Assembly (NCBI GenBank): GCA_964357795.1
Contig: CAYHMN010000001.1
Coordinates: 1 to 39,005, forward strand
Direction: 5' to 3'
DNA: 39,005 bases
Origin: an uncultured Candidatus Saccharibacteria bacterium
Lineage (GTDB): Bacteria > Patescibacteriota > Minisyncoccia > Phycocordibacterales > UBA9973
Below the pieces are notes generated by a model that searched no databases, was not told the DNA's origin, and was given only the letters and a program-made list of their open reading frames with translations. The position numbers were made by a program, and so were the translations under genes. Positions 17,307-26,446 of this stretch are shown in pieces (position 1 is the stretch's first letter; every line of letters begins with the position of its first letter).

Positions 17307-17435
17307 ATGAAAGCAATTAAACAAAAAAGAAATGTGAAAGCGCATATTGAACTGCCAGTAAAAGGGGATAAGAAAAAGGAGTTTGCTCTAAAGCATCCGC
17401 CAAATCTCAAACCCAAAAGTAAACGTGCAAAATAG
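17307..17435 (+). CDS. Tiny Lys-rich ORF (42 aa)
   Basis: MKAIKQKRNVKAHIELPVKGDKKKEFALKHPPNLKPKSKRAK, with 15 of 42 residues K/R. TATACT lies 6 nt before the ATG, and a strong terminator (17441-17472) sits right after the stop. Confidence 0.45.
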   Translation: MKAIKQKRNVKAHIELPVKGDKKKEFALKHPPNLKPKSKRAK

Positions 17436-17997: not shown

Positions 17998-18126
17998 TTA
18001 TATCTTCTTTTTTCTTTTTGCTGCTAGAGCTCCCAGTCTTGCTTTCTTTACTGCAAGACGTTTCTTTGTCTTGCGAGAATGAATTGATTTCGGTTTAATA
18101 CCTAAATTAGTACTTCTTTTTGCCAT
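17998..18126 (-). CDS. Tiny Lys/Arg-rich ORF (42 aa)
   Basis: MAKRSTNLGIKPKSIHSRKTKKRLAVKKARLGALAAKRKKKI, with 17 of 42 residues K/R. Convergent with the DUF5679 gene and shares its terminator. Confidence 0.45.
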   Translation of the reverse strand: MAKRSTNLGIKPKSIHSRKTKKRLAVKKARLGALAAKRKKKI

Positions 18127-22611: not shown

Positions 22612-23940
22612 ATGTCTACATATAGTAAACAAGCCCCGAAACGGGCCTCATATTCATCTGGTTCAAAACCAGGTTCTACAAGTCGCTCAGGTGGCGCACG
22701 AGGGCACTCTAGCTCATATAAAGGTTCATCACGACCCGCATTTCGAAGTAAAAGCACACAGTCTTTTGGTGGCGGACGCCCATCAGGAGGTGGCAACCGA
22801 AGAAGTGGAGGAAAACGCAAAGGAAATTCATTTGAGCGTATTGACGTCTCAAGATTTATAAGTAAAGCCACCATAATAGAGAGCGAGGAGATTTATCTAC
22901 CGACTCATACCTTCTCCGATTTTAACATTGATGAGAGGCTCAAGGTTGCGATTGCAAACAAGCAATATATATATCCAAGTCCTATTCAAGACAAATCTAT
23001 CCCGCATGCTCTAGAAGGACGTGATATCCTCGGTATAGCCAACACTGGTACAGGTAAGACAGCAGCATTCCTAATCCCACTTATAAACAAAGTTTTAAAG
23101 AATCCGAAAGAAACAGCTATCATCATAGCACCGACTCGTGAACTTGCACTTCAGATAGAAAAAGAATTCATTGAATTCACAAAAGGTATGAAGATGTGGT
23201 CTGTGGCTTGTGTTGGTGGTGCACCAATATTTGCTCAGATAAAAAATCTACGCCGTGGAGCAAGCTTTGTAATAGGTACCCCAGGAAGACTTCTTGACCT
23301 CGTGAAGCGTAAAGAAATAGACCTCTCTGATACACGTAGCGTAGTGCTTGACGAAGCTGACCGAATGCTTGATATGGGATTCATAGATGACATAACATTC
23401 CTACTTGGAAAAACTCATAAAGACCGCCAAGGACTATTTTTCTCTGCAACACTTCCAAAGCCAATTGAAAATCTTATCGGACAATTTGCCAACGACCCTG
23501 TGCGCGTAGTCGTGAAGACTCGTGATACATCAAAGAATGTAGAGCAGGACGTTATTCGTGTTGCTCGTGGAGTGGATAAGATAGAAGTCCTATCTGAACT
23601 ACTTAGTAAAACTACCGAATTTAAAAAAGTATTGATATTCTCTGAAATGAAGCATGCTGTGGAGAAACTTTCCGTAGAACTTATAAAAAGGGGATTCAAG
23701 GCAGGCAGTATACACGGTGATAAGCGCCACAATGACCGACAGCGTACACTCAAGAAGTTCAAGGATAATGAGATAAATATACTCGTAGCTACCGATGTAG
23801 CAGCTCGTGGGCTTGATATCCCTGATGTAACTCACGTCATAAACTACGAAATTCCTCAGACTTATGATACATACGTCCACCGCATCGGCCGAACCGGCCG
23901 TGCAAGCAAAAAGGGTATGGCTCTAACCTTCGTAGGATAA
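22612..23940 (+). CDS. DEAD-box ATP-dependent RNA helicase with N-terminal Ser/Arg/Gly-rich extension
   Basis: 442 aa. Q motif PSPIQ, motif I ANTGTGKT, PTRELA, DEAD (LDEAD), SAT, HRIGRTGR. The first 75 or so residues are low-complexity S/R/G-rich. Confidence 0.93.
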   Translation: MSTYSKQAPKRASYSSGSKPGSTSRSGGARGHSSSYKGSSRPAFRSKSTQSFGGGRPSGGGNRRSGGKRKGNSFERIDVSRFISKATIIESEEIYLPTHTFSDFNIDERLKVAIANKQYIYPSPIQDKSIPHALEGRDILGIANTGTGKTAAFLIPLINKVLKNPKETAIIIAPTRELALQIEKEFIEFTKGMKMWSVACVGGAPIFAQIKNLRRGASFVIGTPGRLLDLVKRKEIDLSDTRSVVLDEADRMLDMGFIDDITFLLGKTHKDRQGLFFSATLPKPIENLIGQFANDPVRVVVKTRDTSKNVEQDVIRVARGVDKIEVLSELLSKTTEFKKVLIFSEMKHAVEKLSVELIKRGFKAGSIHGDKRHNDRQRTLKKFKDNEINILVATDVAARGLDIPDVTHVINYEIPQTYDTYVHRIGRTGRASKKGMALTFVG

Positions 23941-23959
23941 TAAGTGGACTAATTAAGTA

Positions 23960-23988
23960 TTGACATTTTTTATATAAAAATGTATATA
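23960..23988 (+). promoter_or_regulatory. Promoter P1 of the basic micro-gene cluster
   Basis: TTGACA (23960-23965), 17-nt spacer ending in TG, TATATA (23983-23988). Confidence 0.65.
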
Positions 23989-24037
23989 TACTATTAAATT
24001 AACTACATTTTTAAACAACCAAATTAAATTTTTTCTT

Positions 24038-24307
24038 ATGGCGAAAAATAAAGCAAGAAAAAAAGGAGCCTGCGTGCATAAAAATGGTCATGCAAAAAAG
24101 GGCCCGACCAAGTCACAGCATATAAAAAGAATTGAACATGTAGATAGCAGAAAAAAGGGGCATAAGGCAAAACATGGAACCCCCGAAGTATCTATAAATA
24201 CAGGTCAGTCTTTATTATTTAAAAAGAAAAACGGTAAGCCCGAAGCCAAATATCTGCAGAAGGAAAAAAAGCAGGAACTTATGAACAAAGGCAGAGTAGC
24301 TGCATAA
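24038..24307 (+). CDS. Small Lys-rich hypothetical protein (89 aa)
   Basis: MAKNKARKKG...; highly basic throughout. Downstream of the consensus promoter at 23960-23988. Confidence 0.5.
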   Translation: MAKNKARKKGACVHKNGHAKKGPTKSQHIKRIEHVDSRKKGHKAKHGTPEVSINTGQSLLFKKKNGKPEAKYLQKEKKQELMNKGRVAA

Positions 24308-24342
24308 ATTTTTTATTTTAAACACCAAAACAACCATTTACT

Positions 24343-24453
24343 ATGGCGCGTAACAAAAAAGACCGCAAAAGCCTCGACAAAAGAAGAGGCAACGGCACCA
24401 AGAAAAAAACAGGTACTAAAAACCTAAATCCAATTTACAGGAAAGGGTATTAA
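24343..24453 (+). CDS. Tiny Lys/Arg-rich ORF (36 aa)
   Basis: MARNKKDRKSLDKRRGNGTKKKTGTKNLNPIYRKGY, with 14 of 36 residues K/R. Its 5' flank and N-terminus resemble those of the 24038 ORF. Terminator at 24474-24498. Confidence 0.4.
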   Translation: MARNKKDRKSLDKRRGNGTKKKTGTKNLNPIYRKGY

Positions 24454-24473
24454 CCTTAAAAAATGAAGAAAGG

Positions 24474-24498
24474 GGCTAGCGTAAAGCTGGCCTTTTTT
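24474..24498 (+). terminator. Intrinsic terminator T1
   Basis: GGCTAGC/GCTGGCC stem (one G-U pair), loop GTAAA, followed by TTTTTT. Confidence 0.75.
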
Positions 24499-24521
24499 AT
24501 TTTTATGACAAATTAAATTGA

Positions 24522-24550
24522 TTGACATTTTTACATAAAATCGTTAAAGT
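24522..24550 (+). promoter_or_regulatory. Promoter P2
   Basis: TTGACA (24522-24527), 17-nt spacer, TAAAGT (24545-24550). Confidence 0.6.
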
Positions 24551-24592
24551 AGTACCAATTGTATTATATATTCACACTTAAAATATAAAGAG

Positions 24593-24715
24593 ATGAGAAT
24601 AAAAAATGTACGGCAAAAAGCCATAAGATATGTAACTCGATGGGAGAGATGGTATCAGAGGTATAAAGCTAAACAAATCAAAAATCATCAGAAAGTTTTA
24701 TATTTCAGACGTTAA
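24593..24715 (+). CDS. Tiny basic aromatic-rich ORF (40 aa)
   Basis: MRIKNVRQKAIRYVTRWERWYQRYKAKQIKNHQKVLYFRR. Downstream of the promoter at 24522-24550. Confidence 0.35.
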   Translation: MRIKNVRQKAIRYVTRWERWYQRYKAKQIKNHQKVLYFRR

Positions 24716-24745
24716 GTAAAATGGTAACCAAAAAATTCTTTCACA

Positions 24746-24871
24746 ATGAAAAAGCTAAAGAAATCAAAAAAAGCTAAAGAGAAGAATCCACGAAATGTAA
24801 AAAGAGGGTGGACCAGAATGTTTTTCTGGTCAGTCGGTATGAAGGGCTTTGTAGAACTTACAATATCGTAA
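24746..24871 (+). CDS. Tiny ORF (41 aa), basic N-terminus and hydrophobic C-terminus
   Basis: MKKLKKSKKAKEKNPRNVKRGWTRMFFWSVGMKGFVELTIS. An alternative 18-aa frame starts at 24721. A hairpin with a T-run follows (24874-24917). Confidence 0.3.
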   Translation: MKKLKKSKKAKEKNPRNVKRGWTRMFFWSVGMKGFVELTIS

Positions 24872-24873
24872 AC

Positions 24874-24917
24874 AATAGGACCTATTATTAATTTATTAAT
24901 GGTGGGCCTATTTTTTT
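24874..24917 (+). terminator. Probable terminator T2 (large loop)
   Basis: AATAGGACC/GGGCCTATT stem (8 of 9 pairs) around an AT-rich loop, followed by TTTTTTT. Confidence 0.5.
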
Positions 24918-24934
24918 ACCTAAAGTATAATTGA

Positions 24935-24963
24935 TTGACAAACCTATTTAACCATGCTATCAT
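24935..24963 (+). promoter_or_regulatory. Promoter P3
   Basis: TTGACA (24935-24940), 17-nt spacer, TATCAT (24958-24963). Confidence 0.6.
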
Positions 24964-25005
24964 TTGATTTAAGTAGTTGTTTAGGAATTATATTGGCTTA
25001 ATTAA

Positions 25006-25066
25006 TTGTTTGAATGACTTTGTGCTTCTATATGGAGAAAAAAGTCATTCAAACAATTTTTATTTA
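25006..25066 (+). terminator. Terminator-like 16-bp hairpin about 40-95 nt downstream of P3 (short RNA end or attenuator)
   Basis: TTGTTTGAATGACTTT (25006-25021) pairs perfectly with AAAGTCATTCAAACAA (25041-25056), followed by TTTTTATTT. ATG 25032 sits in the loop. Confidence 0.65.
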
Positions 25067-25367
25067 TAACCCAAAAACAATTTCTATGCATTTCAGTTTT
25101 CCAACGTTGCAATTAAATTTTGCAATTCAAATAGCAAAAAACAAAAGATTTCCAATTTCTGCAATAATAGTTTACATTCATTCAGATAAAGGGGATCTAT
25201 TGTCCAAACCTCGAACAGCGGAAATATTATGTGGTGACTACTGCCAAATTGGTAGTAGAAAATACAAAATGACTCCCGAAGTTAAGGTGATAGAAGGGGC
25301 AAACAAAGTAATCACTAACGATTCCATCGTTTGGCTTACGTATGAAAGCCCTTCAACCTTAAATTAA
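25014..25367 (+). CDS. Hypothetical protein (start uncertain: 25014, 25032 or 25086)
   Basis: 117-aa track ORF. Its first 17 codons lie inside a 16-bp terminator-like hairpin (25006-25066). No recognisable motif. A terminator follows at 25389-25425. Confidence 0.35.
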   Translation: MTLCFYMEKKVIQTIFIYNPKTISMHFSFPTLQLNFAIQIAKNKRFPISAIIVYIHSDKGDLLSKPRTAEILCGDYCQIGSRKYKMTPEVKVIEGANKVITNDSIVWLTYESPSTLN

Positions 25368-25388
25368 ATTATAAGGTCCGGTAAGTAC

Positions 25389-25425
25389 AAAGGAGTCCAA
25401 GGTATCGCCCTTGCTCCTTTTTTTG
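25389..25425. terminator. Terminator between convergent genes
   Basis: AAAGGAG..CAAGG/CCTTG.CTCCTTT compound stem followed by TTTTTT. Confidence 0.7.
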
Positions 25426-25525
25426 TTCTGTATTGAGTGTCGTAAAGATATATTGTGCGACACTATTATATAATAAGGATAGACCTACAAAGGCCTCTCA
25501 ACACCACTTCCCTCTAGTATTTTGG

Positions 25526-26446
25526 CTATTCTTTTGTGTTCTTTGAAAGACAGGTATTAAATGCGCGGACACCTGCATTGTAATCGGAAATTTTTTGTTT
25601 TAAATCTAGAATCAATTTATTATATTTTTCTACTAGGGAATTGTACTCTGCTATCTGCTCATTGGTGGTCTTCCCTTCATACACTACCCCACTATCTATC
25701 CTTTCCCGACGAGTAGCTAAATCTGCCTCTTTGACTTTTATTTCTTTTTGAAGAAGCTCAATAACTCCATGAAGAACTTCATCGATGGTAGGACAAGCGC
25801 TACGTGGTAGACCAAAATGCTGAACAGCGAGCCATGTATCCTGCCCATTGAACTTACCGCGACCTACGGCGACACCTATCTCGGTATAACTACTATTTAA
25901 AATATTAGCGCGGTGGCCTGGGCTTGCCATCCATGCGTCTAGGAGTGCTTGGGCATCTTTGAAGTTGCCTAGAGCTAAGTTCTCGCCGATGATAATATAT
26001 TCATACCCTACTTTGGTGCCAAGATCAGATACACCGACACCACTCGGCGATACGTGTTCGAAATATTGTTTCGCAAACATATCATCTACTTTCTTTTGTG
26101 CGGATAAATTTAATTTGGAATTCTCTTTCAAATCTGGTATCTCACCATTTGAAGCTCTATTCCTATTCGTCCAGATTATGACATCAGCAACTGATAGCTT
26201 TACCTTGTTTGTATTAGAAGCTAGGCCTTCTGTGACTTTTAGAGCTCCTGGAGTGTTGGCTTCTTGTAAAAGCTCTGATACCTGCTCTGCTTTGAGAACA
26301 ATAGTATCCTTTACATTGCCTGAAAGGTTTATATTCTCCGATATATAAGACACTGCCCTATTGTATACAACCTCTACATCATCACGGACAATGTAGAGCG
26401 CAAGGCCAACGAATATTATAATTATTATTTGATGGAAAAATTTCAT
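25526..26446 (-). CDS. CAP/SCP/PR1-like domain protein with N-terminal anchor and C-terminal coiled coil
   Basis: 306 aa. TM anchor, CAP-domain block GENLALGNFKDAQALLDAWMASPGHRANILNSSYTEIGVAV, then a helical tail. Confidence 0.8.
   Translation of the reverse strand: MKFFHQIIIIIFVGLALYIVRDDVEVVYNRAVSYISENINLSGNVKDTIVLKAEQVSELLQEANTPGALKVTEGLASNTNKVKLSVADVIIWTNRNRASNGEIPDLKENSKLNLSAQKKVDDMFAKQYFEHVSPSGVGVSDLGTKVGYEYIIIGENLALGNFKDAQALLDAWMASPGHRANILNSSYTEIGVAVGRGKFNGQDTWLAVQHFGLPRSACPTIDEVLHGVIELLQKEIKVKEADLATRRERIDSGVVYEGKTTNEQIAEYNSLVEKYNKLILDLKQKISDYNAGVRAFNTCLSKNTKE

What the first reader, a model, noticed from the sequence alone, without database searches (positions are those of the whole stretch)
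23960..24917. Cluster of tiny Lys/Arg-rich ORFs with consensus promoters and terminators
Two back-to-back transcription units have strong signals and carry only very small basic ORFs.
- Unit 1: promoter P1 (TTGACA, 17 nt, TATATA) to terminator T1. It carries an 89-aa ORF (MAKNKARKKG...) and a 36-aa ORF (MARNKKDRKS..., 14 of 36 residues K/R).
- Unit 2: promoter P2 (TTGACA, 17 nt, TAAAGT) to terminator T2. It carries a 40-aa R/K/W/Y-rich ORF and a 41-aa ORF with a basic head and hydrophobic tail.

The 89-aa and 36-aa ORFs share similar N-termini and similar 5' flanks (TTTTAAACAACCAAA versus TTTTAAACACCAAAACAACCA), suggesting paralogy. Strongly signalled, extremely basic micro-proteins are what one expects of ribosome- or nucleoid-associated factors. 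I do not recognise any as a known ribosomal protein. In a lineage that may lack some standard ribosomal proteins they could be lineage-specific additions.
Basis: partly seen in the sequence, partly recalled or inferred. Interest (0 to 1): 0.6.

Follow-up and report, generated by a model that had tools for sequence, protein, structure and literature searches.

The report
Strain-variable basic micro-gene cassettes
The four tiny lysine/arginine-rich reading frames are really there. At least three look like genuine genes, but they are orphan, strain-variable cassettes in a swap-prone gap between two conserved genes of an ultra-small groundwater bacterium, not new ribosomal proteins.

Summary
Two promoter-to-terminator units, P1-ORF89-ORF36-T1 and P2-ORF40-ORF41-T2, lie at the stated coordinates, and the open frames exceed chance (shuffle P = 0.003 for ORF89).

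**Coding evidence**
- ORF89 and ORF36 survive as an 82-aa and a 33-aa ORF in a roughly 50%-diverged allele.
- The C-terminal 23 codons of ORF41 carry four substitutions between haplotypes. All four are synonymous, and two indels are in frame.
- ORF40 is unresolved: one synonymous change, atypical codon usage, and one predicted helix.

**Against ribosomal proteins**
- No homologue appears in 92 species of the same genus, in 1.84 billion representative proteins, or in Pfam, NCBIfam, PDB, PHROGs or PADLOC.
- The genome encodes bL34, bL36, bS21, bL33, bL32, bL28 and bL31 elsewhere.

**Variable interval**
- The interval between the DEAD-box helicase and a CAP-domain gene is about 290 nt in two sister species.
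- Among metagenome contigs 94-98% identical in the flanks, unit 1 is swapped whole for the divergent allele and a third unit is present or absent.

**Reading**
- These are autonomous, "moron"-like accessory cassettes encoding fast-evolving polycationic microproteins, probably nucleic-acid binders. Function is inferred only.
- Much of the basicity follows from A-rich DNA.

The parts
22612..23940 (+). DEAD-box helicase gene. It is the conserved left flank of the variable interval. No terminator lies between its stop codon and P1.
   Evidence: Pfam DEAD and Helicase_C. Orthologues are 74-82% identical in sister species. Same-species contigs are 96% identical in nucleotides up to 23950.
23960..23988 (+). 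Promoter P1 (TTGACA, 17 nt, TATATA) of unit 1
   Evidence: Read from the sequence. It is one of 39 such sites in the genome. The same architecture is kept in the diverged allele.
24038..24307 (+). ORF89. Net charge is +20. The AlphaFold2 model is low-confidence (two helices, no compact fold), so the protein is probably largely disordered. It ends in ...VAA.
   Evidence: Shuffle P = 0.003. The codon score of 0.22 is within the range of real genes. It is homologous to the 82-aa ORF of the alternative allele (z = 6.3). AlphaFold2 gives pLDDT 63 and pTM 0.23.
24298..24325 (+). A 28-nt block spanning the ORF89 stop codon. It is 96% identical between unit-1 alleles that are otherwise about 50% diverged. 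It is unexplained.
   Evidence: blastn and the alignment.
24343..24453 (+). ORF36, net charge +12
   Evidence: A syntenic 33-aa ORF with the shared GNG[TA]K[KR]K motif is present in the alternative allele (z = 3.6, P = 0.004). Codon scores are 0.25 and 0.45.
24468..24506 (+). Terminator T1 (13-bp stem plus T tail). The right edge of the swapped unit-1 cassette is at 24493/24494.
   Evidence: Scan and fold. The alternative allele has a different hairpin at the same place. Identity resumes at 24494.
24522..24550 (+). Promoter P2 (TTGACA, 17 nt, TAAAGT) of unit 2
   Evidence: Scan, 10 of 12 matches. One spacer substitution occurs among the haplotypes.
24593..24715 (+). ORF40 (R/K/W/Y-rich, net charge +13). 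Its coding status is unresolved.
   Evidence: The protein is identical in all haplotypes, with one synonymous change at 24646. The codon score of -0.08 resembles spurious ORFs. AlphaFold2 predicts a single helix at pLDDT 78. Amphipathicity has P = 0.07.
24746..24871 (+). ORF41. It has a variable poly-Lys head and a conserved tail, VKRGWTRMFFWSVGMKGFVELTIS. It is a real gene.
   Evidence: Between haplotypes, codons 19-41 carry four substitutions, all synonymous at third positions. The two indels are each 3 nt, and ATG is replaced by GTG. The other two frames give non-synonymous changes or stops. Codon score is 0.23.
24877..24918 (+). Terminator T2 (17-bp stem plus T7). The unit-3 indel begins right after its T run.
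   Evidence: Fold and junction sequences.
24919..25425 (+). Unit 3: P3 (24935-24963), hairpin (25004-25058), orphan 111-aa ORF (25032-25367) and T3 (25398-25425). It is present in the window strain and absent from same-species contigs.
   Evidence: In L052, L053 and L056, position 24922 is joined directly to 25418, and the indel is flanked by T7 runs. The ORF has no credible relative in 300 genomes of the order; the single hit (E = 5e-4) has two internal stops.
25437..25463 (.). Palindrome GTGTCGTAAAGATATATTGTGCGACAC. It is the conserved right boundary of the variable interval, next to the 3' end of the CAP gene.
   Evidence: The same element sits in G009 and G006 (loci L012 and L014) right after their own basic-ORF terminator, and in same-species contigs.
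25526..26446 (-). CAP-domain protein gene, the conserved right flank
   Evidence: Pfam CAP. Orthologues lie downstream of the helicase in G015, G003, G002 and G006.

Best explanation
The 1.6-kb gap between a conserved DEAD-box helicase gene and a conserved CAP-domain gene holds three autonomous promoter-ORF-terminator cassettes. The finding covers the first two.

- Unit 1 is a transcript of about 500 nt from P1 to T1. In this strain it can also be reached by read-through from the helicase gene. It encodes two fast-evolving polycationic proteins of 89 and 36 aa; the 89-aa one is probably largely disordered.
- Unit 2 is a transcript of about 360 nt from P2 to T2. It encodes a 41-aa protein with a variable poly-lysine head and a conserved aromatic/hydrophobic tail. 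A 40-aa Arg/Trp/Tyr-rich helix may also be translated.
- Translation needs no Shine-Dalgarno sequence, because this genome does not use one.
- The cassettes are accessory. They are orphan to one species, swapped whole or gained and lost by recombination in the flanking genes and at terminator T-tails, and absent from sister species.
- Inferred, not shown: the products act as non-specific nucleic-acid (RNA or DNA) binding polycations whose charge, rather than sequence, is under selection.

They are not ribosomal proteins.
For: Signals and ORFs:
- ORFs and signals are confirmed, and ORF lengths exceed shuffles.

Coding evidence:
- The 82-aa and 33-aa ORFs, a promoter and a different terminator hairpin are kept in an allele about 50% diverged in DNA. 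Homology has z = 6.3 and z = 3.6.
- Codon scores of ORF89, ORF36, ORF41 and both alternative-allele ORFs are 0.22-0.45. Real genes score 0.32 +/- 0.12-0.15, and spurious ORFs score -0.11 +/- 0.19.
- ORF41 has 4 of 4 synonymous substitutions in its tail and two in-frame indels.

Translation:
- Only 6% of 526 long ORFs have a Shine-Dalgarno-like motif. A Parcubacteria subgroup is reported to lack the anti-SD motif (PMC9297842).

Accessory nature:
- There are no homologues anywhere.
- The helicase-to-CAP gap is about 290 nt in G015 and G003. It has different content in G009, G002 and G006.
- Metagenome contigs 94-98% identical in the flanks carry the swapped unit 1 and lack unit 3.

Composition and structure:
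- The island has GC 0.32 and A 0.44, against genome values of 0.377 and 0.31.
- AlphaFold2 gives a low-confidence model with no compact fold for ORF89 and a single helix for ORF40.
Against: - There is no expression evidence.
- Nucleic-acid binding rests only on charge and predicted disorder.
- High K+R content is largely what A-rich DNA yields in most of the alternative frames as well.
- ORF40 has spurious-like codon usage and only one informative substitution.
- The -10 element of P1 lacks the canonical final T.
- Only two unit-1 alleles and three unit-2 haplotypes are known, all from short, low-coverage metagenome contigs. Some of the mosaic structure could therefore be an assembly artefact.
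Confidence: 0.6

Rival explanations
1. One or both units are non-coding small RNAs, or transcribed spacers. On this view the open frames are by-products of A-rich sequence. This applies especially to the ORF40 half of unit 2, which could be a long leader regulating ORF41.
For: - ORF40 has a codon score of -0.08.
- ORF40 has only one substitution among haplotypes.
- The unit-2 fold has z = -2.96.
- K-rich translations appear in most of the alternative frames as well.
Against: - There is no Rfam match even at E <= 1.
- ORF89/82 and ORF36/33 stay open across about 50% DNA divergence.
- The ORF41 tail shows only synonymous change.
- Much of the fold energy comes from the terminator.
Confidence: 0.17
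2. The peptides are lineage-specific ribosomal, or core nucleoid, proteins that compensate for ribosomal proteins missing from this lineage.
For: The peptides have extreme positive charge, small size and strong expression signals. CPR bacteria do lack some ribosomal proteins (PMC9297842).
Against: - They are absent from 92 species of the same genus.
- The ORF89/82-aa profile found no relative among 1.84 billion representatives.
- Unit 1 is swapped for an allele 30-40% identical in protein within one species.
- There is no match to Pfam, NCBIfam or PDB ribosome chains.
- bL34, bL36, bS21, bL33, bL32, bL28, bL31, and ORFs that look like bL35 and bS20, are encoded elsewhere.
Confidence: 0.03
3. 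The cassettes are conflict genes: cationic antimicrobial or leaderless-bacteriocin-like peptides, toxins, or anti-defence factors. They would be kept diverse by diversifying or balancing selection.
For: - Whole-cassette alleles occur within one species, together with presence/absence variation.
- The ORF41 head diverges rapidly.
- Unit 2 encodes two adjacent cationic, aromatic-rich peptides of about 40 aa.
Against: - There is no PADLOC or PHROGs hit.
- No immunity, exporter or recombinase gene lies in the interval.
- No peptide has a transmembrane or clearly amphipathic segment.
- Net charges of +11 to +20 are higher than I recall for bacteriocins (from my own knowledge, not checked here).
- No antisense RNA is evident.
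Confidence: 0.08
4. The region holds young or decaying DNA with no function. It would be a remnant of mobile or recombined DNA whose ORFs and promoters persist by chance or drift.
For: All content is orphan, the region is A-rich and low in GC, and the interval is variable.
Against: - Stop-free frames are maintained in diverged alleles.
- The ORF41 tail is under purifying selection.
- Three of the genome's few perfect -35/17-nt promoters and three strong terminators are kept here.
Confidence: 0.12

Closest known systems
Morons of temperate phages (autonomous promoter-gene-terminator insertions between conserved genes; recalled from my own knowledge)
   Same: - Each unit has its own sigma-70-type promoter and intrinsic terminator.
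- The units sit between two conserved genes.
- They are present, absent or swapped among close relatives.
- Their base composition differs from the rest of the genome.
   Different: - The setting is not a prophage. The flanks are housekeeping genes, and there are no PHROGs or IMG/VR relatives.
- The cargo is tiny polycationic ORFs rather than fitness factors of known type.
Small, very basic ribosomal proteins (bL34, bL36, bS21, bS22/SRA, bTHX)
   Same: Size (33-89 aa), high K/R content and strong expression signals.
   Different: - There is no sequence relationship.
- They are not conserved even within the genus.
- The genome has its own copies of the standard proteins.
Bacterial histone-H1-like lysine-rich nucleoid proteins (for example Chlamydia Hc1/Hc2 and Pseudomonas AlgP; recalled from my own knowledge)
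   Same: They are polycationic and predicted to be disordered. Composition is conserved while sequence and length vary between strains.
   Different: There are no Lys/Ala/Pro repeat units and no detectable homology. The proteins here are much shorter, and DNA binding is untested.
Taxonomically restricted (orphan) small genes of CPR/Patescibacteria
   Same: They have no homologues outside a narrow group, are small, and show leaderless or Shine-Dalgarno-free expression.
   Different: Here the orphan genes come as whole-cassette alleles within one species at a fixed chromosomal gap.

Membership tests
Known small bacterial ribosomal proteins (bL34, bL36, bS21, bS22, bTHX and others) | Sequence match to the family profile or to a ribosomal chain of a solved structure | tested here: not met
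   Pfam and NCBIfam give no hit at E <= 1 and E <= 10 respectively. PDB phmmer gives nothing better than E = 0.015, and that hit has no matching stretch. BLASTP against recalled E. coli, Thermus and Mycobacterium sequences gives E >= 0.1.
Known small bacterial ribosomal proteins (bL34, bL36, bS21, bS22, bTHX and others) | Conserved across the lineage that uses it | tested here: not met
   The peptides are absent from 92 species of the same genus in six-frame searches. Unit 1 is replaced within the species.
Known small bacterial ribosomal proteins (bL34, bL36, bS21, bS22, bTHX and others) | Physical presence in purified ribosomes | not testable with these tools
   This needs ribosome purification or cryo-EM from an uncultured organism.
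Moron-like autonomous accessory transcription unit | Own promoter and own intrinsic terminator | tested here: met
   P1, P2, T1 and T2 are predicted from the sequence. They have not been shown experimentally.
Moron-like autonomous accessory transcription unit | Present, absent or replaced between conserved flanking genes in close relatives | tested here: met
   
Moron-like autonomous accessory transcription unit | Located in a phage or prophage genome | tested here: not met
   The flanks are helicase, CAP and ribosomal-protein genes. There is no PHROGs hit and no IMG/VR relative.
Type I toxin-antitoxin | Small hydrophobic membrane toxin plus an overlapping antisense RNA | tested here: not met
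   No peptide has a transmembrane segment. The ORF41 tail contains R, K and E. No convincing minus-strand promoter-terminator pair lies over the ORFs.
Leaderless or two-peptide bacteriocin operon | Amphipathic or hydrophobic peptides with nearby immunity and export genes | tested here: not met
   The hydrophobic moment is not significant (P = 0.07). The interval holds no transporter or immunity gene.
Rfam small RNA families | Covariance-model match | tested here: not met
   No match reaches the gathering threshold. The best E-values of 0.7-0.95 sit on the terminator.
Target of a diversity-generating retroelement | Adenine-specific substitutions and a template repeat elsewhere | tested here: not met
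   Substitutions between haplotypes affect all four bases and include indels. The genome holds no second copy. A search for the reverse transcriptase gene was not run.

The most novel reading that the evidence does not exclude
The helicase-to-CAP gap may be a dedicated cassette array. On this reading, whole promoter-microprotein-terminator modules are exchanged between lineages at terminator T-tails and a conserved palindrome. Highly divergent alleles of polycationic microproteins are then kept within one species by diversifying or balancing selection. That would point to a role in conflict, either between symbiont and host or between phage and cell, rather than in housekeeping.
Probability: 0.15. 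Interest if true: 0.6.

Novelty: new member of a known kind. Interest (0 to 1): 0.33.

Why it matters
- The result removes a tempting claim, that these are new ribosomal proteins in a lineage with reduced ribosomes.
- It replaces that claim with a documented case of orphan microprotein genes under selection in an uncultured CPR bacterium.
- It shows that in this Shine-Dalgarno-free genome, tiny genes can be recognised from promoter, terminator and haplotype evidence alone.
- It marks a chromosomal gap where whole micro-gene cassettes are swapped within one species.
- If the products bind nucleic acids or act in conflicts, they would be a source of new small cationic proteins. As it stands, this is a modest, local curiosity.

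Tried and rejected
- **Homologue searches, all empty except self and the alternative allele.**
  - Word-indexed protein search for ORF89, ORF40 and ORF41.
  - HMMER profile of the 89/82 pair against 1.84 billion representatives.
  - Six-frame searches of 92 genomes of the same genus. The best ORF40 "hit" lies out of frame inside dnaK.
  - Scans of GTDB, JGI metagenome and IMG/VR collections.
- **Family libraries.** Pfam, NCBIfam, PHROGs, PADLOC, PDB and Rfam gave nothing.
- **Paralogues.** None exist in the own genome. ORF89/ORF36 paralogy is rejected.
- **Basic ORF of G009, G002 and G006.** Homology between ORF89 and their 77-85-aa basic ORF is not significant after multiple tests.
- **Amphipathicity.** The test was marginal only.
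- **Repeats.** Repeats in the interval are low-complexity. No att-like junction motif was found beyond AATTGATTGACA at P2 and P3.
- **Over-conservation of the ORF40 region.** This was considered and dropped. The region has 4 differences in 225 nt, against 2.6-6.6% in the flanks, which is not significant.
- **DGR-type diversification.** This was rejected because the substitutions are not A-specific.
Full report
**1. Observation**

The window is contig C1 of a 710-kb, 55-contig genome of an ultra-small groundwater bacterium (CPR/Patescibacteria type). Identical contigs come from Hainich groundwater assemblies.

The four + strand ORFs are exactly where stated:
- 24038-24307 (89 aa)
- 24343-24453 (36 aa, 14/36 K+R)
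- 24593-24715 (40 aa)
- 24746-24871 (41 aa)

They lie downstream of a DEAD-box helicase gene (22612-23940).

Signals:
- P2 (TTGACA-17-TAAAGT) and T1 are picked up by the consensus scan.
- T2 is a 17-bp stem plus T7, seen on folding.
- P1 is TTGACA-17-TATATA. Its -10 lacks the usual final T, so the scanner skipped it. The same architecture is retained in a diverged allele.

The pattern exceeds chance:
- An ORF of at least 89 aa arises in 0.3% of dinucleotide shuffles. The summed ORF length of 23941-24930 arises in 0.05%.
- The + strand is A-rich, which raises the frequency of stop codons. The minus strand is T-rich, so its F/L-rich ORFs are expected by composition.
- Genome-wide there are only 39 TTGACA-17-TAnnn[TA] sites. 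Of these, 34 are in the 15.6% of the genome that is intergenic, so the motif marks real promoters here. Three of them lie in this 1 kb, all on the + strand.
- Of 16 intergenic small ORFs with K+R >= 0.28 in the whole genome, four are here. Many of the others are recognisable ribosomal proteins.

**2. Are they genes?**

The genome does not use Shine-Dalgarno sequences:
- Only 31 of 526 long ORFs have such a motif.
- Upstream regions are A-rich and G-poor, with T at position -1.
- 215 of 526 have a -10-like box 4-9 nt before the ATG.
- This matches a reported Parcubacteria subgroup that lacks the anti-SD motif (PMC9297842).

The missing ribosome-binding sites are therefore no argument against translation.

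Exact-sequence look-ups led to metagenome contigs carrying a second allele of unit 1. There the DNA is about 50% diverged, yet several features remain:
- a TTGACA-17-TATATA promoter
- an 82-aa ORF
- a 33-aa ORF
- a terminator hairpin of different sequence

Supporting numbers:
- The 82-aa ORF is itself improbable by chance (P = 0.0055).
- The protein pairs are homologous beyond their shared composition. The 89/82 pair has z = 6.3, and the 36/33 pair has z = 3.6 (P = 0.004).
- Codon-usage scores are 0.22 for ORF89, 0.23 for the 82-aa ORF, 0.25 for ORF36, 0.45 for the 33-aa ORF and 0.23 for ORF41. These lie within or near the range of real genes (0.32 +/- 0.12-0.15). They are at or above the 95th percentile of spurious ORFs.

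For unit 2, three haplotypes exist. In ORF41:
- The last 23 codons carry four substitutions. All are at third positions and all are synonymous.
- The two indels are each 3 nt, and the start codon changes from ATG to GTG.
- In the other two frames the same changes are non-synonymous or meet stops.

ORF41 is therefore a gene with a free-to-vary poly-Lys head and a constrained tail, VKRGWTRMFFWSVGMKGFVELTIS.

ORF40 remains open:
- Its protein is identical in all haplotypes, with one synonymous change.
- Its codon score is -0.08.
- It is predicted to form a single helix (pLDDT 78).

**3. What they are not**

- Pfam, NCBIfam, PHROGs, PADLOC, Rfam and PDB give no match.
- The own genome holds no paralogue.
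- There is no homologue in 5.8 billion clusters.
- A profile search of 1.84 billion representatives returned only the two alleles themselves.
- Six-frame searches of 92 species of the same genus found nothing.
- Scans of the GTDB, JGI and IMG/VR collections found nothing.
- bL34, bL36, bS21, bL33, bL32, bL28 and bL31 are encoded elsewhere in the genome, as are ORFs that look like bL35 and bS20.

A ribosomal or core nucleoid component would be conserved at least within the genus, so that reading is rejected. The proposed ORF89/ORF36 paralogy is not supported.

High K+R content is largely a consequence of A-rich DNA:
- A is 0.42-0.48 in these ORFs. Long genes average 0.336 +/- 0.035.
- Five of the eight alternative frames have K+R between 0.26 and 0.37; the other three have 0.13 to 0.23.
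- Random stop-free ORFs of this composition average 0.21.

**4. Context: a swap-prone gap**

- The right neighbour is a CAP-domain gene on the minus strand.
- In G015 and G003 the helicase and CAP genes are about 290 nt apart, with no small ORFs between them.
- In G009, G002 and G006 the gap holds a 130-aa minus-strand gene and a different 77-85-aa basic ORF with its own promoter, leader and terminator.
- That ORF differs between two of those species by four indels of 21, 6, 6 and 15 nt, all multiples of three. Its promoter and leader stay about 93% identical. This is a second, independent case of a fast-evolving basic ORF at this site.

Comparison with metagenome contigs 94-98% identical in the flanking genes, which I take to be the same species:
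- The segment 23951-24493, running exactly from P1 to the T1 stem, is replaced by the divergent allele plus about 235 extra nucleotides.
- Unit 2 (24494-24922) is 91.6-97.7% identical.
- Unit 3 (24919-25425) comprises P3, a hairpin, an orphan 111-aa ORF and T3. It is absent from these contigs, and the indel is flanked by T7 terminator tails.
- The right boundary is the palindrome GTGTCGTAAAGATATATTGTGCGACAC (25437-25463). The same palindrome occurs in G009 and G006.
- One contig (L004) is mosaic even inside the helicase gene. It is 80% identical, then 72 nt are 100% identical, whereas sister species differ throughout.

**5. Mechanism**

Shown:
- The units are autonomous and strongly signalled.
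- Open frames are maintained across alleles.
- ORF41 is under purifying selection.
- The cassettes have an accessory distribution, and whole cassettes are replaced.

Inferred:
- Unit 1 is also reached by read-through from the helicase gene, because no terminator precedes P1 in this strain.
- The products are extended or disordered polycations. ORF89 has pLDDT 63 and pTM 0.23, and no peptide has a significant amphipathic segment.
- They bind nucleic acids non-specifically. Selection would act on charge and length rather than on sequence, as I recall for histone-H1-like bacterial proteins.

The architecture is that of phage "morons", but in a chromosomal housekeeping neighbourhood.

**6. Unexplained**

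A 28-nt block (24298-24325) spans the ORF89 stop codon. It is 96% identical between the otherwise diverged alleles, and both long proteins end in ...AA. It could be a recombination joint, a standby or processing site for ORF36, or a conserved degradation tag. None of these was tested.

**7. Limits**

- The haplotypes come from short contigs at 2-4x coverage.
- Function is inferred from composition only.

**8. Verdict**

These are real but ordinary orphan accessory micro-genes in a recombination-prone gap. They are not ribosomal proteins. The cassette-swap pattern is the most interesting aspect.

Noticed in passing
window 25437-25463: The palindrome GTGTCGTAAAGATATATTGTGCGACAC lies next to the 3' end of the CAP gene. 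It is conserved at the nucleotide level in same-species contigs. It also occurs in two other species (G009 and G006), where it directly follows their own basic-ORF terminator. It could be a terminator or operator of the CAP gene, or a recombination boundary.
   Followed up: partly
window 24919-25425: The third cassette (P3, a 23-nt-arm hairpin, an orphan 111-aa ORF and T3) is absent from same-species contigs L052, L053 and L056. The indel is flanked by T7 runs. The ORF has no credible relative in 300 genomes of the order.
   Followed up: partly
window 24298-24325: A 28-nt block across the ORF89 stop codon is 96% identical between two unit-1 alleles that are otherwise about 50% diverged. Both long proteins end in ...AA, which resembles a ClpXP-type C-terminal tag.
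   Followed up: no
whole genome (G000): The genome hardly uses Shine-Dalgarno sequences (6% of 526 long ORFs). T stands at position -1 in 64% of starts. 41% of long ORFs have a -10-like box 4-9 nt before the ATG, which suggests leaderless mRNAs.
   Followed up: partly
window 17307-17435 (+) and 17998-18126 (-): Two more 42-aa, very basic intergenic ORFs (net charges +12 and +17) have gene-like codon scores of 0.32 and 0.34. Their conservation was not examined.
   Followed up: no
L012 (G009), L013 (G002) and L014 (G006): about 650-910 nt downstream of the helicase stop: A different 77-85-aa basic ORF has its own promoter (TTGACT-17-TATTTT), a leader of about 80 nt and a terminator. Between species it carries four in-frame indels and is 52% identical in protein, while the promoter and leader are about 93% identical.
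   Followed up: partly
L004 1-172 against window 23782-23950: This contig is mosaic inside the helicase gene. It is about 70-80% identical, then the last 72 nt are 100% identical. Other contigs carrying the same unit-1 allele are 96% identical throughout. This is either a recombination tract or an assembly chimera.
   Followed up: partly
L052 834-998 (and L056, L061-L065): Gene callers annotated a 54-aa ORF in an alternative frame over ORF41 in this haplotype. The substitution pattern shows that the ORF41 frame (GTG start, 39 aa) is the constrained one.
   Followed up: yes
L020 (G036) and L024 (G027), just downstream of the helicase: A conserved 58-61-aa zinc-ribbon-like small protein (motif CSCGNKY...C.RC) follows the helicase gene in two other families of the order.
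   Followed up: no
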